Shown here piece by piece: positions 6,091 through 21,406 of a stretch of 64,000 nucleotides of DNA. The DNA comes from Psilocybe cubensis (lineage: Eukaryota). Below the pieces are notes generated by a model. The model was not told the DNA's origin, made no database searches, and saw nothing but the letters and a program-made list of their open reading frames with translations. The DNA is taken from positions 3,038,001 to 3,102,000 of the forward strand of contig CM038999.1 of the NCBI GenBank assembly GCA_017499595.2. The letters run 5' to 3'. Every line of letters starts with the position of its first letter. The stretch's first letter is position 1. Made by a program: the position numbers and the translations under genes.

Positions 6091-6894
6091 TTACTTGTCG
6101 GAAGTGATGTCGATGAGATGTGCGTGGTGGCGACTATGCCTGCGCCGATGGCGGGGGATATCCTTTGGATGCCTGATGACAACATTTAATAATAAAGACG
6201 CATATATCTACGTCATCACTCACCTTCGGACACCAAGACAATAGCACGCCCTGGCGGAAAGGGCGATAAGTGCCAGCCATGTAAGGATAGTGCCCACCAT
6301 GATCATCCAGAATGCTGGCCCAAAATTAAAGGCAAAGTGTATGCTCCCATCTGCGACGTTCTTCAGCTGTGATCTGGCCACCAGTACGAGGGCAAGATCG
6401 ATGGCGAGTGCGGCGGATGCGAGGAGGGCGGTGACGACACTCAGGATCAGGGCGGTAATCGCCATCGGGTGTGAGGCAAGAAATAGAGAGAAGAAGAGGG
6501 GGAAGAGGGAGACGGCTGCTGTGATGGGGTGAAGGATGAGGATGGCAAAGAGGGCCTGCTGAACGGCGTCGACGATGGGTTGGGAGAGGCCCGGGACGTC
6601 GGTGGCTACGAAGGAGGGGATGGTGTATCCCAGGGTGGGACCGACGCAAAGAGGAGTGACGCCGAGAGCATTGTATGCGCAGAATCCCCAGATGCCGAAG
6701 CGCAATTCTGTGGCGAGACTGAGCGGGGCAGATTCTGGCGGGGGTGCAGTGGAGACGAGAGAAAAAAGATAGATGGGCTTGATGATGGTGAGAGACAGCG
6801 AGACAAATAGAAATAGCAGACAGGCAGAGAACAAAAGAGCGACGGCGAGCAGAGAGACAGGCCTGTAGAGGGCCAGAGGGCGATGGGCGAACAT
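6091..6894 (-). CDS. SUR7/PalI (Rim9-like) family 4-TM membrane protein
   Basis: N-terminal TM is followed by the claudin-like motif LRFGIWGFC..C..PTLGY and three further TMs (ILHPITAAVS.., AIDLALV, FGPAFWM). An intron GTGAGT..CAG at ~6224-6173 adds the short basic tail RHPKDIPRHRRRHSRHHAHLIDITSDK*. Confidence 0.85.
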
Positions 6895-7017
6895 GGTGGA
6901 TCCACACCAGAGAGAAACAGGGGCTGGCGGGCCGGGCTCATTAGAATGTTTGTGTGTGTTTGGCAGGGGAGTATGTTGTGGAGGCGGCGATAGAATCTGT
7001 GTGTGGCCACAGCGACC

Positions 7018-9244
7018 ATGTCTGCGATACTCGTCCTGTGCTCGCTGCTGCACATCGTTGCTGCAGACGACAGCACGTCAGAGTATGTCCACAGATCCTT
7101 TGTCTGACTGCTACTGACTCTCTGCTAGATTCCAGCATGACCCCTACCTCGCCTTCCGTCCACAGTTCGCCCGTTCCCTCCCCGTCCAGATCATGCTCAC
7201 CGGCGTCGTCCTCACCCTCGTCGCCGTCCTTTTCATCCATCTCATGTTCACCGCTCAGTATCACTGGCCTCTCGCCCCCGTAAACTATGTTCTCCAGCTC
7301 TCCGGTGTCACCACTCTGCTCATCTCTCTCATCGCTACCATCCATGTCGTTCTCTCCGCCACCTTTGCCGAGAGCGAAAAGTGGCCTTATATGCTCTCAT
7401 ACATCGCCGTCAATGTTCCACCCCTCGACATCGATACCAACACAGAGGGCTGGTCCGTCGCAGAGAGGGCCACCTGGCTCGTTATGAATGCCTCAACCTC
7501 GGGTCTCATCCAGGTATTGTTTCTTCTAGCTCCATCTTATTTGCATCTGATCACTTTATTTCCCAAGATAACACACATTCAATTTCTCACTCTACTCTAT
7601 CCCTCCAAGCTCGAGGGCCGTCTCATCTTCGCCCTTCTAGGGCCCCTCGCCGTCGTCGCTGCCGTCATGCAGCTCCTTCCCATCAGCGGCAACACCTACG
7701 TCAACAACATTGCTTCCGCCGTCCGCAACGTCTGCAACGCCACCCTCTCCCTCCTCTTCACCCTCTCCCTCTTTATCTGGGGTCTCCTCGTTAACCGCCG
7801 CCAGGCCTGGCGCACAGACGGCGGCACCGCTGTCTTTGGCTGCGCCGCCCTCTCCCTCGCCGTCGTCAGTACCGCCCTCAACTTCCTCTACGTCCACAAG
7901 GAGGAAGAATTCGTCTGGCTCCCTGCCCTCATGTGGGCCGTCGTTCTCTGGCAGAGCTTCCTCGGCTGGTGGTGGTGGGTCGGCGCTGGCTCGGGCGGCG
8001 CCTTTGCGAGCGAAGACGAAAATATGGAGGACAAGCTTCGCAGGCAGGCTAAGCGCGACGCCCGTCGCAGGGAAAAACGTGAGAAGAAGAAGGAAATGGG
8101 CAGACTGCGAAGCACCATGCTCGCACGAAGCGAGTCCCGGAATGGGACAGGCATGCTAGCTGTACCCACGTCCTCTGCGTCCGCGTCGGGCCAGTCCCTC
8201 TCGCGCTCCTCCAACGCGTATCTGCGCCATGGCGTATCCCCATCCTCTATCGCCCCGCGCGAAATATCTCAGACCAACTCGAGCGAGCCGCTCACCGCTT
8301 CCCCTACCTCCCCCCGCACTAACACCAACACCAACACCAACTCGACCTCGCTCAGCGACACAACGACCTCCGCATCGTCTTACGCCTCCTCCTCCCTGCG
8401 CACGCGCCCGAGCGGCCGTCTGCCGCAGTACCTCCCTGGCGTCGTCTGGCGCTGGTACGCGTCGCTGCGCCGTGAGCACAACGCCGCCGCGCGCGTGCAG
8501 GCCGCCGAGCGTGTCGAGCGGATGCGCGAGATCGGCGCGGTGCCGGCTGGGAGTGCGGGTGCTGGGCCGAGCGCTAGTGCGGCGGGTCCAGGATCAGGGG
8601 AGATGGGCATCGAGATGACGGATGTGAGCACCCGAAATGCGGAGGACGATCCGCTTACTGTGGAGAAAGCTGCGGCACGCAATGCTAGTGCCAATAACAA
8701 CAAGAATAACAATGCTAATGCTAGTGGTGCTGCTGGTGCGCGTCGAGGGCAGGTCGAGGTGGTTGGGTGGGGATGGGGATGGGAGGGCTTTGGCTGGCGG
8801 CGCCGGCAGAGGCGCGCCGAGCGCGATACGGATGCCCAGATGGAGCGGGACTTTGAGTTCGAACGACAGGGCCGCAGTCGGGGCCGTACGCGACGGAGAA
8901 GGGGGGCGGAGGAGAATGGGAGCGGGAGCCAATGGTCATCTGCATCGTCTTCCGATCCATCAGACGAGGAGGAGGAGGAGGAGGAGGAGGATGATATGTA
9001 TGTTTCTGATGAGGATAGGCGTGCGAGGCGGCGCGAGCGCGAGCGGGAAAGAGGGAGAGATCGGGTGCGCCGGCGGACGGCTGCTGCACAACAACATCAG
9101 GAACAAGAAGCGCAGGCGCAGGCGCAGGTTGTCCCTAATGCACCTACGGGCGCGGAACCCGTCGCTGCTACCCGTCCGCGCTCTGTGTGGTGGTGGGGTC
9201 CGCTGTGGCGCTGGCGGTTACAGGACTCGACGGTGTACAGATGA
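7018..9244 (+). CDS. 7-TM ambient-pH sensor-like protein of the PalH/Rim21 (basidiomycete Rra1-type) family with a long charged C-terminal tail
   Basis: Exon 1 MSAILVLCSLLHIVAADDSTS is signal-peptide-like. Intron GTATGT..TAG (7083-7128) leads into FQHDPYLAFRPQFARSLPVQIML, and an in-frame intron lies at ~7514-7567. There are seven hydrophobic helices, QITHIQFLTLLYPSKLE parallels the PalH TM3 loop motif, and a highly charged region directly follows TM7. Confidence 0.75.
8964..8994 (+). repeat. (GAG)n microsatellite encoding poly-Glu
   Basis: gacgaggaggaggaggaggaggaggatgat within the 7-TM protein tail. Confidence 0.9.
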
Positions 9245-9454
9245 AAAGTCTCTTTGTTTTGTGCATTTTTTTTGTTTTTTTTTTTTGCAGAGTCGGATTC
9301 CTTGCCTCATCTGGCCTCTTTCGTTTTGTTCTCGCTGGGGATTTAGGCTTGGATTATGGGAAGGTTTTGCGGCGTGTACTATACATGCATGCATGCACTT
9401 GTGGATATTGCCATAGGGTTATTTGGCGGGGCTCGATAATATTAACGGGCGACT

Positions 9455-9612
9455 GACAATCGACGACCGACGACCATCGAAGACGCCCGGAAAGCTTGCT
9501 TTATTTAAAACATATTCCGCTTTTCTTCCCATCATGGTTTTTTGCCCGGACCCGACAAAAAAAAAGTCAACTCGGGCAGACGACCATCGACTATCGACTG
9601 TCGACTATCGAA
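9455..9612. repeat. Two patches of short TCGAC/CGAC-based imperfect repeats
   Basis: tcgacgaccgacgaccatcga (~9460-9480) and gacgaccatcgactatcgactgtcgactatcga (~9578-9611). Confidence 0.6.
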
Positions 9613-11904
9613 AAGCCCCTGAGCTTGCTTGCTTTATTTACAGTTTCCATGTTGGTTCAAATATTGGGGTTGTTTGGGTTCAAATCAATGGATTTGGGAG
9701 TCCAAATTTGGGATTCGAGGTTTTTCTTTTTTGTGAAGAGGGGTGTTACAGGGCAAATGTCAAAATTGCAAAAAAAGAAAAAAGAAAAAAAGAAATGGGA
9801 TTGTCATTGACAGGCTGAAGAAAGAGGAGAACAAAGGAAATTGAAAACGAGAAAGAAAAGAATGAGTGCGTAGGCGATGAATCTGTAAGATCGGCAGGAC
9901 AAGGACAATGACAATGACGAGGCTATGATCATGAAAAGATGTGAGCGTGGGTGGACGCGTACCAGGACTGGCAGGACGCACTGCATATGCCGTAACAAAT
10001 TCGACCCAGAAACGAAGATATCGCGATTTACCTTTTCTGCGTTCCTCTAGACTCTTTGCTTGTTTGGTTGGTTGTGCCAAATCGCTTTTCGTGATTGGAC
10101 CGCCACGAATCGGTATCCCAGCACAGTGACACCCTCGATCTAGGACCTATGTTCTGTCAGCTTCTTGAATCTTTACAGATTCCGTCCTTGTTCACAAAAA
10201 AATGTGTAATGTGTCAAAGGCTTCGCGAATCTCGACCTACTTTTCAAATCTTTCACTGGACTGGCCTTTCAAATAACCTTTCGATCTATCGTAATTATAA
10301 GCAGCCTCCATGCCGAGTAGCGCCTTTTTACAATGACGACTAAGGACCGCATGCCTATTCCCGCCACCCCCACATCTACCCCTAAAACGTAGAATGCGGT
10401 CACTTCGCTCCCTGCTTTCTGGCCTCGTGCTTCATCTCGTTTATCTGCGATCTGCGATCTGCGGTATACATGCAGTACGAGAAGGCGATACCGGGAAACT
10501 CGAATTCTTCAAGTCAGAAACGAATCACGTCGATTTTGGCTCTCTCCTCTTTTCCACTTTTCCACTTTTCACTTTTCACTTCTTGCTTTTTGCTTTTGTC
10601 TCGCAGAAGATCTACTTACGGCCGGTCGGTCGCGCCAATCCAATTTGCTATCTATTCGCGATTGGACAGTCCCAAATCCGTATTCACTGTTCAGAGCGGT
10701 GATTATTTTGATTGGGTCCCAGGGTGCTTCTTTTTAGATTTCGTCGACCGCCCGTTCTCAATGCTGTACCATGTCCGAAATTTTTTTTAAAAAACACCAT
10801 ACTATTACAACCACGTACCCGCATCTAACCCCGACCTTTTCCCATTTCCTATACTGTCGCCCCGTTTTCTACCCTCTGCCTTTATCTCCCTCATTTCTGG
10901 TATATGTGTTGTCCTCGCTGTCCTATCTGTTCTGTTTCTGTGCTTAGTGTAGTGTAGTGTATCTGGTCGCGCCCGTCTCGTTGCTCTCATCTGATTCGAT
11001 TGATCTGTTGATTTTGATTTTTTTTTTAGTTAGCTTGGTTTCTTGACCTACAGTACACATCTACCCCTTTTTATCCTGCAGTGCTTAGACGTAATATCTT
11101 ATCCTTTGCTTCCCGCGCCTTAGGGCCCTCATTAGTATGATCACACCGCCGCCGATTACACCTGTCTGTTTTTACCCTCCACCTCTAACACGTTGTGTAT
11201 CATAGATCAATCGAATTTTGCATCTTGTCAACGAAATTATGGCTATATTCGTATTTTCCAGGAAAGAGAATATTGCAAGTGAGAACTCGTAAATTTTATG
11301 TACATGATTCGAATTGCTACGACAGCGACAATGATAGTTTAAAACGACAGTACAAGACTAAAAAAATGCTAATTAAGATACCAAGAAACTAGGAGAGTAA
11401 TAACCAACAAGGCAGCATGGACCGTTGTGAAGTGATAAAAACGGAACAACAGATGATTCAGAATGTGCATATATGACAACGACAGCTATGAGAAAAATCT
11501 AACAAACCGACGATCGATGGTCTTAGTAAGTGGCAGTATACCGCGTAGACCGCCGTGCAGGAGATGAACGGTGATAATTATATCAAAATGAAGGGTCTTT
11601 TTTATTATAGCTCGGCACCGGGTTGAATTTTTTTCACTTCGAACAATGAACAGTGTGTGCGAGGGATGTGGGTTGGGTTCCAGTAGATGACCAAGGGATA
11701 TATACAACAAGGGCCAGGGCGCTTATTTTTCAAGAAAATTTGGCATGTTCGAGGGGGCTGTGGGAAAGGGCCTCGAAGTTGGCTTTTCTGTGGCTTGAAT
11801 GGGGCATGAGACCGATGGGTGGATATGATACAGGCGGAATTTTGCGAACAGGTGAATGTTCGCGTCTTTGTTGCGATTTGACGCGGTGGATTTTTTTAGC
11901 AGAA

Positions 11905-12482
11905 TTACTGGTTTCGAATAACTTGGCGGATCCACCTCTCGAGAACCATAACAGGGAAGAGCCGACGGAATGCTGCGGCTAGAGCTCGAAGTTTCGCCTA
12001 CAGGTACAGGAAATATCGTCCGTCAACACTACGAATTATGAGAAAAGTTGATCTCTCCACTTTACCTTGATAAATCCATCTCCTCCATGGGCCGCGTTGG
12101 CGTTTGGATTCGGGTGTGGGTTTACCACGGGCGCCTGTTGGTTTTGAGCCTGTAGTATCTGGCCTTGCACCGGGCCAGCTTCTCCTCTTCCTGCGTGAGA
12201 TTCATCTGAAGCATCGTCGCGATCTTGTACCTTGAGAACCACAGTCAGCTTGAATGTTCAATTGTTTATATTAATTTGAGAAAATCCCGCAGCAGTGGGG
12301 TAAAATAGGAAACGCAGCAAAAAATGCCACTCACCTCCTCATTCTCCTCTGGCTGAGCCTGAGCATGTACTGGACGTACGCCAGGAAGATGGAGCCCTTC
12401 CACCGCATCGCGGTGAGTTGGCACGAAAGGGTGCCCAAGCTCGAGGACTTGGCGGATAGATGCCAAGGGGCTGCAGGCCATG
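11905..12482 (-). CDS. Small hypothetical protein (probably 3 exons)
   Basis: MACSPLASIRQVLELG..EENEE, intron GTGAGT, VQDRDDASDESHAG..GDGFIK, intron GTAAAG..TAG, AKLRALAAAFRRLFPVMVLERWIRQVIRNQ*. Splice signals are plausible. No family was recognised. Confidence 0.45.
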
Positions 12483-15400
12483 GAATCGTTAATGAAGAGG
12501 ATAGAATTTAAAGTCAAAAGAAAGGACAGGCGGCCGCGTCGACCTGCAGCAAAACAAAATTGTTGAAGTGATAAAAGAAAAATGGGGTGAGGGATATTAA
12601 ATCGAGGAACAAAATCGATCAGATGAACACAATGAAAAGCGGCTAGTTCTGAAAAGTTAGATTGACGAATGCCGCTCTCCTAGTATTCACACACACACAC
12701 GGGTTTTGCAACAAACCAAAATCATCCTCATGACAATGGTCAATGACGATACATGCCAATTCCCGTTATTTGCCATTCTTTCGAACTCTGCAAAAACTAC
12801 ATAGTTTGGAATCAACGGAGACACGCGTCAGCACACAAAATTAGCACCAAAAAATGATTGGGACCGGCACTGCCAACTAACATGCATACTCGAAGTGTCA
12901 CGGACTTCCCTTTCCCTTCCCCAAATTTGACCATCTACGCAGAGGCGGACCTTGTTACTCGACTTGCCCGTATTGTTACCCTCAGCAAGGTATAAAGATG
13001 GTTCGACGGCTTCCAAAACTCAACACCCAGATGAACATCTAGAAAGGATTTGACGCTCAATGGCATTTGGAATACCAACAACAATGTACCCACTTGTCAT
13101 GCATGAGTGAGTCGCATTGATCCAGTATGTGTTGTTGTCGGAGACAGATCTTGCGGGAGGTAGAATCACTCTTTCGCTAGGCCGAATTCGACGTTCGATA
13201 TACCAGCAAACAGCTACCAAGGACCTCCGACCAACCGACCTCGCCTGGTTGGATCAATTTTGTATTACGACTTGAAGACATTCCATATACCGTGAGTATC
13301 TGTCCGCCTATCGAAACAAAGGACTATTGCCGGCAAAGCCTGTTCTCGACGTATTCATAACACCTTGTCCTGGAGCGTTGATGGCTACGAAGTCCGTCCC
13401 AAAAATACATTTTACCGAACCCGACATCCTTCTAAAACAAGAACTTATGGTCGCAGCCAACCAATTCTTCTCATGTCGGGAAGATTGACAGCAGCATTGG
13501 TTAAATGTACTCCACCAAAAGAACCATGACCCACAGGTGTTGCAAAGGGACAGACTTCGAGGAAGGATATACGTCGACAAAATTTTCAATAAGTGCTCCA
13601 GTGAAGCGAGAAGGGCGTGGCCAAAATGTCAGCAATCGATTGCTCTGGTTGATAGACCGCAAATTATCGAAAGATTTCAAGGCTGGTCCAAGCATTCCGA
13701 GAGCTGCCCGGGAGTGTCACTCCCAGAATTGATCCCCATGGCTAGAACTCTTAACATGGACATCTCCCGACTTGTGATCAAAATTCGAATTTGGACAAAA
13801 CAAACATAGAATGTTGTTCCACGGGAATATTAGGATCGTACCCCCATCACGACTAGGAATCGGTGGGCGTATTCGAACATGCCCATGATTGACGTTAGCG
13901 GTGCATTGATTTACGCAGTGGAATAGCCTGTGTCCATTCCGTCTCGAAGTCGTGGAAATGTATAACTGGAAGTGGGCGACCTTCCTAAACACCCACTCAG
14001 CAAGAGTCTCTCTCCAGGCGTTTCTACCACCTTCTCTTTCTGGATCTGCACCATGAAGATCAATCTTACTTGTCAACCTGTGTCTGTAATCCTCAAACGC
14101 GACTTCCCATCCTCTACAGCCTTGACAGTCATTCAAAGCCAACATTGGTCTCCTGGGAGACGAAGATGCTTCGAATATCGTGATTTATTCGTAATTTATT
14201 GTTAGCTGGAGGTCTGAGATAGATTTGCTGGTTAATGTGAGAAGAGGTATTCCGCATCGATGTTTTGTTGTTGGCTCCGTATTAATCATGCTGTTCTTAG
14301 TCAATAAGACAACTGCAAGGCTGCCCAGACAGGACAGGCCTGAGTTGCAATCCAGGACGGTCGCGACTGCCGAGTACCAGAAAACGCATGGTAGGAACAA
14401 TCCTGATTCAGCCCTGTCACCCTCCATTTAATCCTAGAAGCCTACTCTTTTCGTGGATGGCTACTGCTATGGTCTTCCTCCAAGTGTGATATTGATACGT
14501 CACATGATTGATGTCACGTCCAATTAAAATGGATCAGAGGAGTCATTCTTCGTTTTTCTCTTCGAATGTGTGATCTGGCGATATTAATTGCATTAACAGG
14601 CCCTGTTCGTAATCCTGTAAGGCGTGCTTCAAGATCAGCAAGTCCCTCAAAATACAAGACAACAAGAATAAATTCTGGCAAAAGCATAATGGCCCTCCAA
14701 TCCAGAAAGCAAAGTCAAGCGCGGGAGAAAATGAGAAGGAAGTGCCAACCACCCAGCCAGTGGATGCCAGAAACACGCCAGAACAGAGAATATAATCCTA
14801 GCAAAATCTGGACAAGAAGAAACCACAACGATTTGGTTAAAGAGCAAAGGACTTACTATTGACAGGATGTCATCTTGCGTTGAGCTGAACTCTCGACGCC
14901 CACAACACCACAATCTCATATTGCATGTGTGGAGGTGAGGAGTTGCACGAAAACACCAAGGACTCCAGGGCCTGTTCTATGGTTCACGTTGGAGGATGTC
15001 CCAAAACGCCATGTTCAATAACTGCAGACAGGTAAAAAGACTTTGCCCATTATTGCGGGCATATCCATGCGTCTGTATGATGATCCAGTTCCTGCATAAA
15101 AGGCCATGTATTTTGTCCGAATCCATTTCTGTGGGCGATGTGGGCTGTTATGCGACGTTCTAGAACAGATCGCGGAAAAACAATGTCCTGTGGCGGCACA
15201 CAATATCCAACACCAAGGACGACCGAGATCTGTCGAAAAAGCGGTTGCTGGCCGTTGACTGGCTATGGCTTGTGTTCGGGTGCAACTTGCGGATGATGAT
15301 AGAAAGAAACACGCCGTCATATTCCTAGTCTCCTAATCTCATCCTACACCTCTACTCACAGCGTCAAACGCCTCGAGCAGCTTTGCTACCAGTGTGCCAT

Positions 15401-17343
15401 TTACTGCGTTGAGTCGCCCAAAGACATAGATCACCGGTGGAGTAATGACCTGGAAGGTAGGGGGTGCCGCCAAACACATATTCATCGCGCTCATTATTTT
15501 GCGTCCACAGCATGGTGTCAAAGCTGGTATTGACGTCAATCGTCTTTCTGGTAAGGTTTGAGCATTGACGGACAGTGAAATCGGTTGATGAGGCTCATTG
15601 TCTCATCTTGTGGCACCGCGCTCGAATTCGACACACCGATTTGAAACCAAACTTGACTTGCATTGTGAACGATATCGCAATATCTGGTCTGTGCGAGACA
15701 ATAAAAAGTATATGCTCCAATGGAACAAAAATGACTGAAATGCGATGTTGAAAGATTGAAAGAAAAAGTAGCGGAAGAAGACCCATCACGGGGGCACAAT
15801 CCAGGCCGGCGTCTCGCCGGTTCGCCCAGCCGTACCACTTCCACTACATGAATGCCACTGCCGCGGTTTAACCTTCAATAATACGTTTTCAATACTTCAA
15901 GCCGCTGCCTTTTTCAAGTAAACCAGCATAAAATAAATCCTCCACATGCTAATTCAAAGAATTTCCGGTGCGAAGTATTCAAGTTGGTAATTTACGCTCG
16001 AGTGAGTCAAACCATCAATATTTGCATTTTTGTTGACTTTGCAGGCATTATAGGCATTAGCAAACGTAGGGTATAGATAAAAACGCGCGAACCATTTGAT
16101 CAACCAAAATCGACTACCGATCCTTAAAAGAACTGAAATTTTTTGTTCTGCTGTGTACTTATTGGCGAACCTAGTTTACCGACTGGTACTCAAAAGTTAA
16201 GGTGGTAGGTTTCAATCAAGTAGTTCCATGACACACGACTTAATTTCTGCACTATCGAATTGCATTTAGGATCCTTCGAATGCTTGATACTCACATGATG
16301 TTTTCGAACATAAAGCCCCTTCGGACACGCAAGTACGCAAGTTGTAGATTTTACGAATTACAAATAGTTAATTGGCATGTTTCATTTCTTGACGTCCAGT
16401 GACTGACGATCTCTTCGTTAGTCTCCATCATCCTATGGGCTGCTTCCTGTCGTTCTCCCTGTCCGCTTGTCAAATTATACTCTAACTTATTTCATTCGGT
16501 TTGTTTTCTGGCTTGAAGCCAAGTCTTGACCAAGGGTTCTTTTGCGCTAGATCTTCATTCACTATTCTTCTTGCCGGAACTCTTATGAGATCAAAGTACT
16601 GGGCCCAGAAATGGCTCATCAATTTAACGTCTAGTTTGATTTTATCATTTATCGCAACGTCAATACCCGCCCATTGGCCATCAGTTCGCCCCATGGCAAT
16701 TCATTTGATGCTATTCCCAAGAGCTCCTACCCGGAATTATCAACAAGTGCCAGCGATAATTCTGGATGGCCAAAGTAACCAACATGCAGACGAAAACTTG
16801 ACTATCTGGATGACCGAGTTAATTACTGCTCCATAAATCTGCCTGTATGTTTTTCTCATTGGACATCGACGTCTGTTTTATGCTGATGTCTATGCGTGCG
16901 TTTGAGTTTATCTCCTCTGTCACTCACATAATATCTCCTTTTCAGATCTTTACGGAGTTGATGAACACATTTTGAAGACAGAAGATCTGACAAGTGCAGG
17001 AAAAATGTTATTCAAAGCGTTTCAAACAGGTTCTATTACATCCTGAATCCTCGTGTTGCTATGTCCGGTGCAATGTGATATCTACTCTGTTGTTCAAATC
17101 AAAGAAGGATGACGCGTGTTCTACAATTCATCAAACATGGTCCTATTGCGCTTCCAGTTCCGGTGGTTCCGTGATATCATTGGTCTTCGGCTGCGGTCGC
17201 CCGGTGTGCTACGAGATCAAACATTCATTCGAAGGTAAATGTATATGCCATGCCCGCGTTTACTATGACGGTCTTATTGAAGCTTCTTTTCTGTCCTGAT
17301 CTCATTACCGCATCTGGTACTTCGAACTCGGGACTGCAGTGGT

Positions 17344-17349
17344 TATAAA
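17344..17349 (+). promoter_or_regulatory. Candidate TATA box of the kinase gene
   Basis: TATAAA about 80 bp upstream of ATG 17430. Confidence 0.45.
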
Positions 17350-17429
17350 TGCTTCTTGAAGCTTGTTTACGAGTCTCTTCTACTGTTGGATACTGAACTT
17401 ATTTTGAACAATTAGTGACTCATATTTCC

Positions 17430-18836
17430 ATGTCTGACCCTCTCCTTCCCCCGGGTCTTCCTCTGCCTCCATCAATCCAAGGATCTGGAATACGTGCTGA
17501 AGTGCTAGGCTTTCCAAGCCTGTCTAAGCATATTGAAGATCATCTTCCTGGAAATGAAGTACTTGATGAAGGTATGCTATCGTTTCTTTAATTAAATAAC
17601 TGGTTACATTTTGATTCAATAGACCGCTCTGTACGCATCTATACCATACTCAAAGTTCTTCATCAGAGCCCATGGTCCTCTCTGTACATGTGTAATTGGC
17701 ATAGTCCATTGCGTCCCAAGGAGGGATCGCCACCTCTAATCGAAATTTTCCGGTTTGGAGAAAACTCTCGGCTCATAGCACTCAAATGCATTGACTGTCC
17801 GACATTGTCTTCCTCAAATATTCCCCAAATCAAAGAACTTGACGTCAGCACTATCTTTCTGTAGTTTTAGTGCATCCCTGATGGACCATGTCTGTTTGCT
17901 AGGCTCTCCGGAAACTTTCACCTCACAGGAATATTGTCAGCCTCTACGATTACTTTTTCTCTTTAGATCAACGAAAATTATATCTTGCCACCGGTGCAAT
18001 GGAAGGAAATCTTTATCAATTTATAAAGGCTCGCAAAGGAAGAGCATTAGCAGGTGGTCTCGTGTCTTCCATCCTTTTTCAAACGCTCCTTGGATTAAAT
18101 CACATCCATTCGAACGGTTATTTCCATCGCGACTTGATACCGGAAAATATTCTTATCACAACCCAGGGTCTGTTTAACTACCTTTCCATACTGACCAATA
18201 CCACCACAGCTCCTGATGCAGTTGAAGAAAAAGACGTTGTTGTCATTGTCAAAATCAGTGACTTCGGTCTAGCTCGAGAGCTCGGAAGCGAAGGACCCTA
18301 TACCGAATATGTTACCGTTCGTTGGTATCGCTCACCCGAAGTTTTGCTTCTAAGCCGGAACTACACCAGTGCTATCGACATGTGGGCCTTTGGGGCCATC
18401 GCAGCGGAGGTTTTGAACCTCTCTCCCTTGTTTCCTGGAAATAGCATAATCGACCAATGTATGAAAATATGCGAAGTTCTTGGCAGTCCTTCTGACGAAG
18501 CGCGATTGGATGAGAACGGTGACCGGCTGGATGGGGGAGCATGGCCCGAAGGCATTCGATTGGCTCAAATCGTTGGTTATCAGTTCCCGGCTGTGAGTGA
18601 GAAATCAACTTGTTAAGTTTTATTCTTAGACCTTCTTTTCGTCTCTCTAGATCGTTCCAAGACCTTTCTCTTCATTCTTTGAACCAACGGTCCCAGCCTC
18701 TCTTCTCAGCTGCATAAAAAATCTCCTGGAATATGATCCCGGAAAACGTCTGACAAGCCAGGCTTGCCTCTCCCACATATACTTCATTGAAACCTCCAGT
18801 CATCGTGAAGTCCCGGCGGACTTGCAGAGACATTGA
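17430..18836 (+). CDS. Divergent CMGC/RCK (Ime2/MAK-like) protein kinase, kinase domain only
   Basis: Four exons splice in frame. Motifs: LIALK, KELD/ALRKLSPHRNIV, MEGNLYQFIKARKGR, HRDLIPEN, DFGLARE, PYTEYVTVRWYRSPE, DMWAFG, YDPGKRLT. Stop TGA at 18834-18836. Confidence 0.85.
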
Positions 18837-19955
18837 ATGCGACTTTTTTCATTATTTAGTTATATTAATAGGTATCTTCGTCGTTTAGCTGTTCAGTCCA
18901 TAATTGACTACATTTGATATCGGTAAAAATGTGATAATCGGGTCTGTTGATGTCTAAATCCACCTTTAAATCTAGGAAACTTAACTAAAGGATGTTTCAA
19001 GTACAACAAAGATGGGCCAACCTCACGGTATCCTTCCGCAATGCGAAGCACACTAGTATGATCTGATTGCTATGGTATGCCAGTTGTGGCGAAATCCTGA
19101 TTCAATGAAGTTCTGAGTTACCGTGGATAGCACATCACTACAGCACTACAAACACCTATTCCTATTGACCAAAATTATTAGCACTATGCTTTCATTGCCA
19201 GTCTTCAGGAGTTGAAGGAGTTGAAGAGTTATTCTGTGTTATTATTAACTGTCAAATTAATCCATTCTATCTGTAAATTTCGCACAAATGATTCTAATCA
19301 ATCTTTGACTATGCGGGTTTGTTAAAGGCAATTTTATCACCTAACCTAGTCTCTCCTAGACAGGCAACGATACGTACGGCTTCTTTAACGACGACGACGA
19401 CGTCATATAATAAAAGAAAGGGCTTAAGAAATGGCTGGATACCCAGTTATTGTTCTGGGATAATTTGGGTCTCGCTGTTGCTTCCTTTACTGCAACATTT
19501 CATAGAACCCATCGCCATGAACAAACAGGCCAGGCCTCCCAATAACTGAATATTCTGTCCGGGAGGTCGCTACTGAACAAGACCTTAAGAGAGAATGACA
19601 AAGACTTTGAAAAAAAATGTCAATCCAAAGGAGCATAATAGTGTGTGTGAGTGGGCAGGCATCGGTTCGATACCGATTCGAAGGATATTTTTGATAAATG
19701 AAATCTAAACATCATTTTTTAGTGCCACTGTGTCGAGTAAAGTATCGTGTTTCTTTTGTAGACATGCAGAATCGCCAGGAGAACATCATCTGAAAAACAT
19801 AACCGTGTCTTCATTCTGCAGAGGAATAGTCCCAAGTCGTGTATTGGCGGCATGGATATCGTGAATTGTAGATCGATTGGGCACAAATTGGGACGAAAAT
19901 ATTCATTCATCGGGTCAAATAACCGTTGTATGATCTAAAGACAGAATTCCAGACT

Positions 19956-21283
19956 CTATGCCCCAGGGCGGCGAACCTGAGTATACTTTGATTGATCAGT
20001 CATGATAGAAAACATAGGAAGGGACTCGTGTCACCAGCTGGTATCTAACACCACAGAATTGCATGAATCTATTAAGGTTGTGATCTCTAGATGTGGTGGG
20101 CTCCGGCAATTCGTATTCATTCATCAGAGCCTTGGTTGTATCTCCTGAACGTGCAATATATTATTAAGAAATCACATCTTTTAGCTCATACCATGACGTA
20201 TTTAACATACCGTCGAGCTGGAAAAGTTCTTTGAGATCCTTCGGGTATTGTGCACTGACAGTCCCGTCCGCCTTCAGCATAGTAGCAAGAAGGTCATCCG
20301 TTTTATTGTGACGCAAATTCCCGTTTGTGCGGCGGCTCTCGCTGCAGTAAAATATTACGACGACTCTTTGAAAACTCCAAAAATACCAAGGAACTACTCA
20401 CGAATTATGCAAGCGAAGATTCAATTCTTCGAGTTCCTTCTTACTCATTGCAACCTCGTCTTGAAGCTCCTGAGGAATATGCGCCTTGAGACACTCCGCG
20501 ACTTGCTCTCTAACCAATTCGTCTATCTGATTTGTGATCTCTTGCTCCACTATTAAAATGTCAATTTGGAAATTGCGGGGCTCCAAGCAAAATCAAAAAA
20601 ACCCTTTTCTCGCATGGTTTCTTGGACTTGACGGTCCAGAATCTCGTCCAGAATGTCTGAAATAAAATACGAATGATCAGGAAATACCGCTTATCAAGAA
20701 AAGGAATCTATGCACTCTGAATTTCGATGAGACCTTCCTTATGCTTTAGGTCTTGTCCACGAATTTGTTCGCGAAGTCTGCTCTTTTTATAAGCAAGGCA
20801 TTCACAGAGATTTACTGTACACAGACTCTGATATCTCTTGCTTGGTTCCAGGCTCCCCCAAGAGCGCTATTTGCATAGTCTGGTTCTGTAAAGCATCTAT
20901 AGCAGCCTGAAAGGATCTTGGCGTCATGTTCCCAAGCAGTGAGCTTTAGCTAAAAATACCCACCGTTAGGTTTCCTAAAGGCTCTTTAATCTGGTTGATA
21001 TAGACGCTCGATTTCTCAACACCGACATCATTGTTGATGGAAATGGGGCTAAGAGACGAGGTAACTGTGTTCTCTGCGGTACTTGAAGTAGGATGTTCCA
21101 TGACGGGGACGTTGTATCCAGGGAGGACGGTTGAGCCTTAATAAATGAGCAAAAGGATGATGTCACCCTGCCCCAAAAACATGCGGTGTCCAACTCTCGT
21201 CCATGATGCCGTGCATGAGGCATACTCGTGACCGCCTCCGAGGACAAGGTGTTCCCAAACTGTTCCGTGGGTAGATCGTTCAT
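19956..21283 (-). CDS. Hypothetical coiled-coil protein (multi-exon; 5' end uncertain)
   Basis: Exons read FQAAIDALQNQTMQ, LREQIRGQDLKHKEGLIEIQ, VEQEITNQIDELVREQV..LNLRLHNS, ESRRTNGNLR, YPKDLKELFQLD and DHNLNRFMQFCGVRYQL, with canonical introns between them. Confidence 0.65.
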
Positions 21284-21406
21284 TTGATGAGGTGTATCTA
21301 ATATGCTACTAAATGTAAATAAATATCGAGGTGATGTAAGTTCGCTACAAGTGTGGAGTGGAGGGCAATATCTATTTATTATGAATTACACGTACGTGCC
21401 TGAGCG

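What the first reader, a model, noticed from the sequence alone, without database searches (positions are those of the whole stretch)
6091..9244. Head-to-head PalI-like and PalH/Rra1-like genes, 123 bp apart: a candidate co-regulated pH-sensing receptor module
Seen: a SUR7/PalI-family gene (minus strand, ATG 6894) and a 7-TM PalH/Rim21-type gene (plus strand, ATG 7018) are divergent. Only 123 bp (6895-7017) separate the start codons, with no TATA box, so both 5' UTRs and the core promoter must be shared or overlap. Established: in ascomycetes PalI/Rim9 assists the 7-TM sensor PalH/Rim21 at the plasma membrane. In the basidiomycete Cryptococcus the 7-TM sensor is Rra1, and as far as I know no PalI/Rim9 partner has been established there. 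Inference: this tight linkage may identify the accessory subunit of the basidiomycete pH sensor, encoded as a bidirectional two-gene unit.
Basis: partly seen in the sequence, partly recalled or inferred. Interest (0 to 1): 0.8.

Follow-up and report, generated by a model that had tools for sequence, protein, structure and literature searches.

The report
Mushroom Rra1 pH-sensor gene beside SUR7 gene
A mushroom-forming fungus carries its copy of the basidiomycete pH-sensor gene Rra1 head-to-head with a small four-helix SUR7/PalI-family membrane-protein gene, an arrangement kept in many gilled mushrooms but not beyond them, so it is a testable but unproven hint that the two proteins work together.

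Summary
A SUR7/PalI-family gene lies at 6091-6894 on the minus strand. A 7-TM gene lies at 7018-9244 on the plus strand. Their start codons are 123 bp apart and no TATA lies between them. All three predicted introns are skipped in cDNA-like contigs.

The 7-TM gene is the orthologue of the Cryptococcus pH sensor Rra1. Homology searches lead from it to the C. gattii and Tremella proteins that the Rra1 paper names. It keeps the functional histidine and the C-terminal motif. It does not pass Pfam PalH, although 13 of 64 family members give consistent sub-threshold PalH hits.

The head-to-head pair recurs in 13 of 79 metagenome loci. All 13 fall in the Agaricales clade. None of 20 non-Agaricales loci with enough upstream flank has it, and it is absent in Agaricaceae-like loci. 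The two genes lie on different contigs in 15 named genomes, mostly Mycena.

In the literature, SUR7/PalI genes are dispensable for Rim signalling in Cryptococcus (triple knockout) and Ustilago. Rra1 partners are now known (Rra2, Nap1) and neither is PalI-like.

Verdict: both genes are labelled correctly and form a lineage-restricted conserved pair. That the SUR7 protein is a sensor subunit remains a hypothesis, at about 0.3.

The parts
6091..6894 (-). SUR7/PalI-family gene. Two exons (6224-6894 and 6091-6172), 249 aa, four TM helices, a short basic His-rich tail.
   Evidence: Pfam PF06687, 40.6 bits above the 29.6 cut-off. Spliced product. AF2 model at pLDDT 86.4 shows 4 helices plus an extracellular sheet. 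The closest solved folds are TARPs and claudins.
6173..6223 (-). 51-nt intron of the SUR7-family gene.
   Evidence: GT..AG on the minus strand. Skipped in contigs of X1 and X2, read through in X3 and X4.
6895..7017 (.). 123-bp region between the two start codons. No TATA and no PacC GCCARG site.
   Evidence: Sequence printed. Motif scan.
7018..9244 (+). Rra1 orthologue. Three exons (7018-7082, 7129-7513, 7568-9244), 708 aa: signal peptide, 7-TM domain in about the first 295 aa, then a cytosolic tail of about 415 aa.
   Evidence: gene model; orthology to named Rra1 orthologues; seven helices.
7083..7128 (+). Intron 1 of the Rra1 gene (46 nt).
   Evidence: GT..AG joint in an X2 contig.
7514..7567 (+). 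Intron 2 of the Rra1 gene (54 nt, in frame, no stop codon). If retained it would add 18 aa inside the third TM helix.
   Evidence: Absent from all 9 homologues aligned. Skipped in X1 and X2 contigs.
7238..7240 (+). Codon of the TM1 histidine (LFIHLMF). It aligns with His46 of the C. gattii Rra1 orthologue.
   Evidence: this column is H in 94 of 104 family members. His46 affects Rim101 processing in C. neoformans (PMC11526942, section 9).
9182..9241 (+). Conserved extreme C-terminal motif SxWWWGPLxRWRLQDSTxY.
   Evidence: Nearly invariant among 9 Agaricomycete homologues. Present at the C-terminus of C. gattii CGB_G5320C.

Best explanation
Shown: the plus-strand gene is this fungus's orthologue of Rra1, the 7-TM protein that starts alkaline-pH (Rim101/PacC) signalling in basidiomycetes. 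The minus-strand gene is an expressed SUR7/PalI-family tetraspan with a claudin/TARP-type fold.

Inferred, and the reading I think most likely: the head-to-head arrangement arose within or at the base of Agaricales. It has mostly been kept because the two genes share a very short promoter region inside a block of partly conserved synteny. It has not been kept because the two proteins form an obligate two-subunit receptor.

On this reading Rra1 works as in Cryptococcus. It senses pH through the TM domain (including the conserved TM1 histidine) and the C-terminal tail. It hands the signal to an Rra2-type adaptor, the ESCRT machinery and the Rim13/20/23 protease complex. The SUR7-family neighbour is an ordinary plasma-membrane-domain protein, at most a dispensable helper.
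For: Identity of the plus gene:
- A profile of the plus gene and 9 homologues hits Kwoniella pini P0219 at E=4.3e-133.
- P0219 in turn retrieves Cryptococcus proteins.
- The clusters of those hits contain CGB_G5320C (C. gattii) and TREMEDRAFT_69388. Ost 2015 names both as Rra1 orthologues (PMC4393102, passages).
- Window exon 3 against CGB_G5320C gives 52% identity over 163 aa, E=2e-41, plus the C-terminal motif.
- The His46 column is conserved.

Linkage is lineage-restricted:
- Of 79 metagenome loci holding an Rra1 relative, 13 have the SUR7 orthologue. In all 13 it lies upstream on the opposite strand (tblastn, HMM).
- 42 loci have at least 1300 bp upstream; 9 of these have the gene and 33 do not.
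- On a tree all 13 positives sit in the Agaricales clade, and 0 of 20 loci outside it have the gene.
- Inside the clade 12 loci lack it: 9 Leucocoprinus-like ones, plus L012, L022 and L047.
- In named genomes the two genes share a contig length in 12 species and lie on different contigs in 15, of which 12 are Mycena species and the others Roridomyces, Favolaschia and Macrolepiota.

Neighbourhood synteny is also partly kept. The window's kinase gene (17.6-18.8 kb) lies 1.6-3.1 kb downstream of Rra1 in L002, L003, L011 and L029. Other window genes recur near Rra1 in 6 more loci.

Genetics elsewhere:
- A triple knockout of the three SUR7/PalI-domain genes of C. neoformans has no Rim phenotype (PMC4393102, passages).
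- In U. maydis every Rim component except PalI/Rim9 is needed (review PMC3385132, passage).
- The N. crassa palI-homologue mutant is also the exception among pal mutants (abstract start of PMC4996508 in the listings).

Rra1 partners found so far are Rra2 (2 TM, CNAG_05520, an analogue of the Rim8 arrestin) and Nap1.

No shared cis motif: there is no PacC site in the window's 123 bp. One of the 13 divergent regions scanned (the window plus 12 loci) has one, and no common 8-mer appears apart from a splice donor.
Against: The neighbour belongs to exactly the family that assists the 7-TM pH sensor in ascomycetes (PalI/Rim9 with PalH/Rim21). Only a handful of SUR7-family genes are expected per genome (my estimate, not measured here), so a chance pairing of these two families is unlikely a priori.

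The pair is kept head-to-head in about 10 distinct Agaricales lineages. The SUR7 start lies only 147-511 bp from Rra1 exon 2 in 11 of 13 loci.

Among SUR7-positive loci the flanks are shared far less often than the pair itself. Flank length limits that comparison, and the set was selected on the pair.

The knockouts were done in yeasts that lack the linkage. I could not show that the knocked-out genes are orthologues of this gene.

I have no genome-wide baseline for how often divergent pairs are retained in Agaricales.
Confidence: 0.55

Rival explanations
1. First reader's reading. The SUR7-family protein is the PalI/Rim9-type auxiliary subunit of the Rra1 sensor in Agaricales. It is a claudin/TARP-like tetraspan that helps Rra1 reach or stay at the plasma membrane, and it is made from a shared bidirectional promoter so that both rise and fall together.
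For: - Family precedent: PalI/Rim9 aids plasma-membrane localisation of PalH/Rim21 (review passages).
- Rra1 looks like a divergent PalH. The Pfam PalH model hits 13 of 64 Rra1-family members at E<=0.01 (best 9.8e-8, 31.9 bits), always over the same model positions, about 58-63 to 234-262 of 332.
- The head-to-head arrangement is conserved in 13 metagenome loci of the Agaricales clade with very short spacing. The two genes share a contig in 12 named species, including a 4,192-bp Gymnopilus dilepis contig with consecutive locus tags.
- The nearest solved folds are TARPs, which are receptor auxiliary subunits.
- Both genes appear as spliced contigs in the same two cDNA-like runs.
- PalI-type helpers are often only partly required even where they act (A. 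nidulans; review passage). Negative knockouts are therefore weak evidence.
Against: - The linkage is absent outside Agaricales (0 of 20 loci). It is lost in Agaricaceae-like loci, and the genes lie on different contigs in 15 named genomes, mostly Mycena, while both genes persist.
- SUR7/PalI knockouts are silent in C. neoformans and U. maydis.
- The passages I read of the Rra2 AP-MS and pairwise AlphaFold work name Rra1, Rim23 and Vps23 and no SUR7 protein. I could not see their supplementary tables.
- Orthology of this gene to PalI/Rim9, rather than to another SUR7 paralogue, was not testable here.
- No co-expression data under a pH shift.
Confidence: 0.3
2. The two genes are co-regulated for a reason other than a shared complex. 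For example, both could be part of a plasma-membrane or cell-wall stress programme, with the SUR7 protein organising membrane domains in which several sensors, Rra1 among them, sit.
For: - A short shared upstream region is kept across lineages.
- The precomputed source names for homologues include 'actin cortical patch SUR7'.
- Published work links Rra1 function to plasma-membrane composition (review table row).
Against: No expression data bear on it. No shared cis motif was found. It carries the same lineage restriction as above.
Confidence: 0.1

Closest known systems
Cryptococcus neoformans Rra1 (CNAG_03488) with its partners Rra2 (CNAG_05520) and Nap1
   Same: The plus gene is the orthologue. 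It shows 52% identity over TM3-TM7 to the C. gattii orthologue and has the same build of 7 TM helices plus a long tail. It has the same TM1 histidine (His46) and the same extreme C-terminal WWGPL..WRL..VY motif.
   Different: In the window a SUR7-family gene sits 123 bp upstream, head-to-head. The Cryptococcus SUR7-domain genes carry distant locus numbers, and their triple deletion has no Rim phenotype. Rra2 has 2 TM helices and acts like the Rim8 arrestin, so it is not a tetraspan. No Rra2 sequence was available to look for its orthologue here.
Ascomycete pH-sensing membrane complex: PalH/Rim21 (7 TM) with PalI/Rim9 (SUR7 family), plus Dfg16 in yeasts
   Same: One 7-TM sensor with a long cytosolic tail and one small SUR7-family tetraspan. 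The window's tetraspan passes the Pfam SUR7/PalI model. Rra1-family members give consistent sub-threshold PalH hits.
   Different: The window's 7-TM protein does not hit Pfam PalH at E<=1, and no family member reaches the 34.1-bit cut-off. Whether the tetraspan is the PalI/Rim9 orthologue is untested. No functional data exist for any Agaricomycete.
Claudin/TARP superfold (e.g. TARP gamma-2/-5/-8 on AMPA receptors; claudin-3, claudin-19)
   Same: Four TM helices carrying an extracellular beta-sheet stabilised by a Cys pair. Foldseek gives E about 2e-5 and TM-score 0.55-0.68 normalised to the query. TARPs are receptor auxiliary subunits.
   Different: Sequence identity is only 10-16%. The resemblance is one of fold and says nothing about a partner. 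It probably holds for the whole SUR7 family.

Membership tests
SUR7/PalI family (Pfam PF06687) | Scores above the curated Pfam gathering cut-off. | tested here: met
   40.6 bits against 29.6, E=2.9e-10, model positions 3-200 of 201. 81 of the 83 homologues listed carry PF06687 in the precomputed column.
SUR7/PalI family (Pfam PF06687) | Four TM helices, with a Cys-containing motif in the first extracellular loop (motif recalled from memory, not taken from a call). | tested here: met
   Helices at 11-32, 105-136, 142-180 and 193-216 plus a five-strand sheet. In the 66-sequence alignment F66, G67 and G70 are invariant, and W69, C72 and C83 are at least 90% conserved.
PalI/Rim9 subfamily (orthologue of A. 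nidulans PalI / S. cerevisiae Rim9) | Groups with PalI/Rim9 rather than with Sur7, Fmp45 or other paralogues in a family tree or by reciprocal best hits. | not tested
The one search spent on this gene returned only Agaricomycetes.
PalI/Rim9 subfamily | Needed, at least partly, for PacC/Rim101 processing and for plasma-membrane localisation of the 7-TM sensor. | not testable with these tools
   This needs genetics. Published knockouts of SUR7/PalI-domain genes in C. neoformans and U. maydis were silent.
Rra1 family (basidiomycete Rim-pathway sensor) | Sequence orthology to the proteins named as Rra1 or Rra1 orthologues. | tested here: met
   Chain to CGB_G5320C and TREMEDRAFT_69388, both named in Ost 2015. 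Direct BLASTP E=2e-41. On the family tree the window protein sits with the named Agaricales proteins and apart from the sequences identified as Tremellomycete, Malassezia, Ustilaginomycotina and Pucciniomycotina.
Rra1 family | Seven TM helices at the N-terminus followed by a long cytosolic C-terminal tail. | tested here: met
   Hydropathy. Model of the Cyclocybe orthologue P0001: seven helices between residues 41 and 294 at pLDDT mostly above 90, then a largely disordered tail containing two helices.
Rra1 family | The TM1 histidine (His46 in Cryptococcus) that tunes signalling. | tested here: met
   The aligned column is H in 94 of 104 members and in the window protein. The function of His46 is taken from PMC11526942 section 9.
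Rra1 family | Required for Rim101/PacC activation at alkaline pH. | not testable with these tools
   Shown only in Cryptococcus and Malassezia.
PalH/Rim21 (Pfam PF08733) | Scores above the curated Pfam gathering cut-off (34.1 bits). | tested here: not met
   The window protein has no hit at E<=1. Of 64 other family members scanned, none reaches 34.1 bits. 13 hit at E<=0.01 (best 31.9 bits), all in the same register. This is remote homology, not Pfam membership.
Bidirectional (divergent) co-regulated gene pair | Head-to-head orientation with a short shared upstream region, conserved in relatives. | tested here: met
   123 bp between start codons in the window. In 13 loci the SUR7 gene lies upstream on the opposite strand, 147-511 bp from Rra1 exon 2 in 11 of them. 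This holds only within Agaricales.
Bidirectional (divergent) co-regulated gene pair | Correlated expression and mapped, closely spaced or overlapping transcription start sites. | not testable with these tools
   Only assembled contigs were available, and they cannot show transcript starts or levels.

The most novel reading that the evidence does not exclude
In gilled mushrooms the basidiomycete pH sensor Rra1 has a dedicated claudin/TARP-like auxiliary subunit. This would be the long-missing Rim9/PalI counterpart, encoded head-to-head with the sensor and expressed from a shared promoter. Rra1 itself would be a highly diverged PalH. The ascomycete and basidiomycete sensing complexes would then be homologous in two of their membrane parts rather than independently recruited.
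Probability: 0.3. Interest if true: 0.6.

Novelty: new member of a known kind. Interest (0 to 1): 0.4.

Why it matters
Reviews describe the membrane end of the basidiomycete pH pathway as differing from the ascomycete one. No Rim9/PalI-type helper has been shown there.

A conserved physical pairing of the Rra1 gene with a SUR7/PalI-family gene in Agaricales gives one specific candidate to test, in species where knockouts are feasible.

The consistent sub-threshold PalH hits in Rra1-family members also suggest that Rra1 is a diverged PalH, not an unrelated protein. That would simplify the evolutionary picture.

If the pairing turns out to be neutral synteny, the locus is simply a correct annotation of two known gene families.

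Tried and rejected
- Complex prediction (collected). Residues 21-320 of the Cyclocybe Rra1 orthologue were paired with the window's SUR7 exon-1 protein. The result was 'no answer' (score 0.00 in two runs). The controls were not run and my alignments were not used. This is neither for nor against binding.
- The look-up of sequencing runs. No holder is on record as RNA. Two runs are guessed to be RNA, and I rely only on the splice joints in their contigs. Contig depths were not used to compare the two genes.
- PacC-site and shared-k-mer hunt in the divergent regions: nothing.
- Sequence searches of the PDB with both profiles: only low-complexity tail matches.
- Foldseek of the Rra1-orthologue model: no match at E<=0.001. 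The weak rows are GPCRs and rhodopsins.
- Protein Atlas for the SUR7 gene: only SUR7 clusters, with no subfamily resolution.
- Pfam on ORFs flanking the pair: nothing above cut-off.
I therefore could not count SUR7 paralogues or look for Rim genes genome-wide.
- The tblastx clustering of flanks was too coarse and was replaced.
- I considered that intron 2 (in frame, no stop) might be coding. I rejected this because all 9 homologues lack it and the cDNA-like contigs skip it.
Full report
**What is there**

The window comes from an Agaricales fungus. The closest named proteins are from Psilocybe cyanescens, Cyclocybe aegerita and Crassisporium.

On the minus strand a two-exon gene (6224-6894 and 6091-6172) encodes a 249-aa protein. 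On the plus strand a three-exon gene (7018-7082, 7129-7513, 7568-9244) encodes a 708-aa protein. The start codons are 123 bp apart (6895-7017), and that stretch contains no TATA.

The gene models are checked in two ways. First, all 9 homologues aligned lack the 18 residues that the in-frame 54-nt intron would add. Second, contigs of two runs that must derive from spliced RNA (X1, X2; one study; their 'RNA' label is a guess) skip exactly the predicted introns: the 51-nt and 54-nt introns in both runs, the 46-nt intron in X2. Two other runs (X3, X4) with long contigs read straight through. No listed RNA-type contig covers 6852-7052, and contigs cannot show transcript starts, so the claim of overlapping 5' UTRs stays an inference.

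**The minus gene**

- It passes the Pfam SUR7/PalI model: 40.6 bits against a 29.6 cut-off.
- Its orthogroup has an invariant F-G-x-x-G core. It also has a Trp and two Cys in the first loop that are at least 90% conserved, and a C-terminal S-A-R-A-C-Y-C-x-G-V-R-R stretch (66 sequences).
- An AlphaFold2 model is confident (pLDDT 86.4, pTM 0.84). It shows four TM helices carrying a five-strand extracellular sheet.
- The nearest solved folds are TARP auxiliary subunits of AMPA receptors (E about 2e-5, query TM-score 0.55-0.68) and claudins.
- Whether it is the orthologue of PalI/Rim9 or of another SUR7 paralogue could not be tested. The one database search spent on it returned only Agaricomycetes, and no reference sequences could be fetched.

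**The plus gene**

Pfam PalH does not hit it. Nor does it hit 14 Agaricomycete homologues at E<=0.01; one has E=0.19.

A profile of the gene and 9 homologues, searched against 1.84 billion representatives, found 491 proteins at E<=0.001. Look-ups of 20 of these named the following:
- Tilletiaria anomala
- Mixia osmundae (a fused gene model)
- three Malassezia species
- Cutaneotrichosporon
- Cryptotrichosporon
- Kwoniella pini (E=4.3e-133)

A search with the Kwoniella protein returned many Cryptococcus species and also the window's own homologues, at 48-53% identity. The clusters of two of its hits contain CGB_G5320C of C. gattii WM276 and TREMEDRAFT_69388 of Tremella mesenterica. These are the proteins that Ost et al. 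2015 list as Rra1 orthologues (PMC4393102, passages).

Window exon 3 aligns to CGB_G5320C with 52% identity over 163 residues (E=2e-41), and the extreme C-terminal motif is shared. The histidine at position 46 of the C. gattii protein aligns with the His of LFIHLMF in the window protein, and that column is His in 94 of 104 family members. Boucher et al. report that His46 mutants of C. neoformans Rra1 change Rim101 processing (PMC11526942, section 9 read in full). A model of the 94%-identical Cyclocybe orthologue has seven TM helices after a signal peptide and a mostly disordered tail.

I take the Rra1 orthology as settled.

**Relation to PalH**

Of 64 Rra1-family members scanned apart from the window protein (14, 12, 38), 13 hit Pfam PalH at E<=0.01. 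The best is 9.8e-8 at 31.9 bits. All 13 hits cover the same model positions (about 58-63 to 234-262 of 332) and the same part of the protein. None reaches the 34.1-bit cut-off. The hits concentrate in Ustilaginomycotina-like sequences. No Cryptococcus, Kwoniella or Malassezia member has one, and neither does the window protein.

This argues for remote homology between Rra1 and PalH. The papers I read describe Rra1 as lacking sequence homology to Rim21.

**Is the linkage conserved?**

A scan of metagenome contigs gave 79 loci that encode an Rra1 relative. The SUR7 orthologue was found in 13 of them, by tblastn and by an HMM over six-frame ORFs. In every case it lies upstream on the opposite strand. 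The distance from the SUR7 start to the start of Rra1 exon 2 is 147-511 bp in 11 loci, 810 bp in L035 and 2825 bp in L029; it is 235 bp in the window.

Forty-two loci have at least 1300 bp upstream. Nine of these have the gene and 33 do not. The other four positives have shorter flanks.

I placed the loci on a tree of the TM domain with 39 named references (FastTree; loci with fewer than 180 aligned residues were left out):
- All 13 positives fall in the Agaricales clade.
- None of 20 long-flank loci outside it has the gene. These are Russulales-, Thelephorales-, Atheliales- and Boletales-like loci, plus L071.
- Within the clade 12 long-flank loci lack it: nine Leucocoprinus-like (Agaricaceae), plus L012, L022 and L047. 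One further negative (L078) was too short for the tree.

In named genomes I compared the contig lengths and locus tags listed for the two proteins.
- They share a contig in 12 species. Examples: Gymnopilus dilepis (a 4,192-bp contig, tags 011854/011855), G. junonius (consecutive ids), Volvariella (886/888), Flagelloscypha (…871/…874) and Schizophyllum fasciatum.
- They lie on different contigs in 15 species: 12 Mycena species, Roridomyces, Favolaschia and Macrolepiota.
- 'Same contig' here rests on equal contig lengths, not on coordinates.

So the pair is an Agaricales feature with secondary losses. It is not a general basidiomycete one.

**Is the pair more than ordinary synteny?**

The wider neighbourhood is also partly conserved. 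The window's protein-kinase gene (17.6-18.8 kb; Pfam) lies 1.6-3.1 kb downstream of Rra1 in L002, L003, L011 and L029. Genes from window 18.9-25 kb recur near Rra1 in six other loci, in varied order. Among SUR7-positive loci the flanks are shared in only a minority of pairs, but that set was selected on the pair and the flanks are short.

I have no genome-wide baseline. No PacC site lies in the window's 123 bp, one of the 13 divergent regions scanned has one, and there is no common 8-mer except a splice donor.

**What the literature says**

- Ascomycete PalI/Rim9 helps PalH/Rim21 reach the plasma membrane (review passages).
- In C. neoformans three SUR7/PalI-domain genes were deleted singly and together, with no Rim phenotype (Ost 2015, passages).
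- In U. maydis all Rim components except PalI/Rim9 are needed (review PMC3385132, passage).
- The N. crassa palI-homologue mutant is likewise the exception among pal mutants (abstract start in the listings).
- Since 2024 Rra1 partners are known. Rra2 (CNAG_05520) has two TM segments, co-purifies with Rra1 and acts like the Rim8 arrestin (PMC11526942 section 9; PMC12345238 passages). Nap1 is the other. Neither is a tetraspan.
- Searches for Rra1 with Sur7, Rra1 with Agaricomycetes and PalI with PalH and Agaricomycetes found no paper describing this gene pair.
- Supplements of these papers were not seen.

**Verdict**

The observation and both family labels are right. The conserved divergent arrangement is real but confined to Agaricales.

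The coincidence that Rra1's neighbour belongs to the very family that assists the ascomycete sensor is the main argument for a functional link. The lineage restriction, the repeated loss of linkage with both genes kept, and the silent knockouts in two other basidiomycetes argue against an obligate subunit.

My estimates:
- about 0.55 that the linkage is syntenic or promoter-driven, without a dedicated complex
- about 0.3 that the tetraspan is a PalI-type helper of Rra1
- about 0.1 for looser co-regulation

A complex prediction gave no verdict.

Noticed in passing
Rra1-family proteins P0433, P0435, P0441, P0444, P0442, P0432, P0237, P0260, P0250, P0229, P0445, P0258, P0431: The Pfam PalH/RIM21 model hits 13 of 64 Rra1-family members at E<=0.01 (best 9.8e-8, 31.9 bits against a 34.1 cut-off), always in the same register. 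This suggests Rra1 is a diverged PalH, although the papers read here say it lacks sequence homology to Rim21.
   Followed up: partly
window 9300-17600: About 8 kb between the Rra1 gene and a protein-kinase gene holds no ORF with a Pfam hit and no tblastx match in any locus. In L002, L003, L011 and L029 the same kinase gene lies only 1.6-3.1 kb from Rra1. The window therefore seems to carry an insertion or a gene-poor stretch here.
   Followed up: partly
window 28536-33406 (+): A single uninterrupted ORF of 1543 aa full of TPR repeats (TPR_10, TPR_12, TPR-S) overlaps, at its 3' end, a second ORF in another frame that has a CHAT protease domain. This looks like a large TPR-CHAT gene of the kind seen in fungal NLR-like repertoires.
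   Followed up: no
window 7514-7567: Intron 2 of the Rra1 gene is 54 nt, in frame and without a stop. If retained it would put 18 residues into the third TM helix. It is spliced out in both cDNA-like runs.
   Followed up: yes
L017:4854-5001: In this Agaricales metagenome locus the projected SUR7 start and a signal-peptide-like ATG of the Rra1 gene are only about 27 bp apart. The two transcripts would have to overlap head-to-head.
   Followed up: partly
P0265 (Mixia osmundae, 1378 aa): The public gene model joins a CPSF73-type metallo-beta-lactamase/Beta-Casp protein to an Rra1-like 7-TM region at residues 855-1252. This is probably a merged annotation of two neighbouring genes.
   Followed up: no
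window 9182-9241 and the C-terminus of P0448: The last 16-20 residues of Rra1 (WWGPLxxWRLxDxxVY) are conserved from Cryptococcus to Agaricales, although the roughly 400-residue tail is otherwise very variable. A second conserved tail helix (LRRxHxxAARxQAxERxER) is modelled at pLDDT of about 80.
   Followed up: partly
window 17600-25300: Other genes near the pair are a protein kinase, an ABC transporter (minus strand, 21.5-24.3 kb) and an alpha/beta hydrolase. None belongs to the Rim/Pal pathway.
   Followed up: partly
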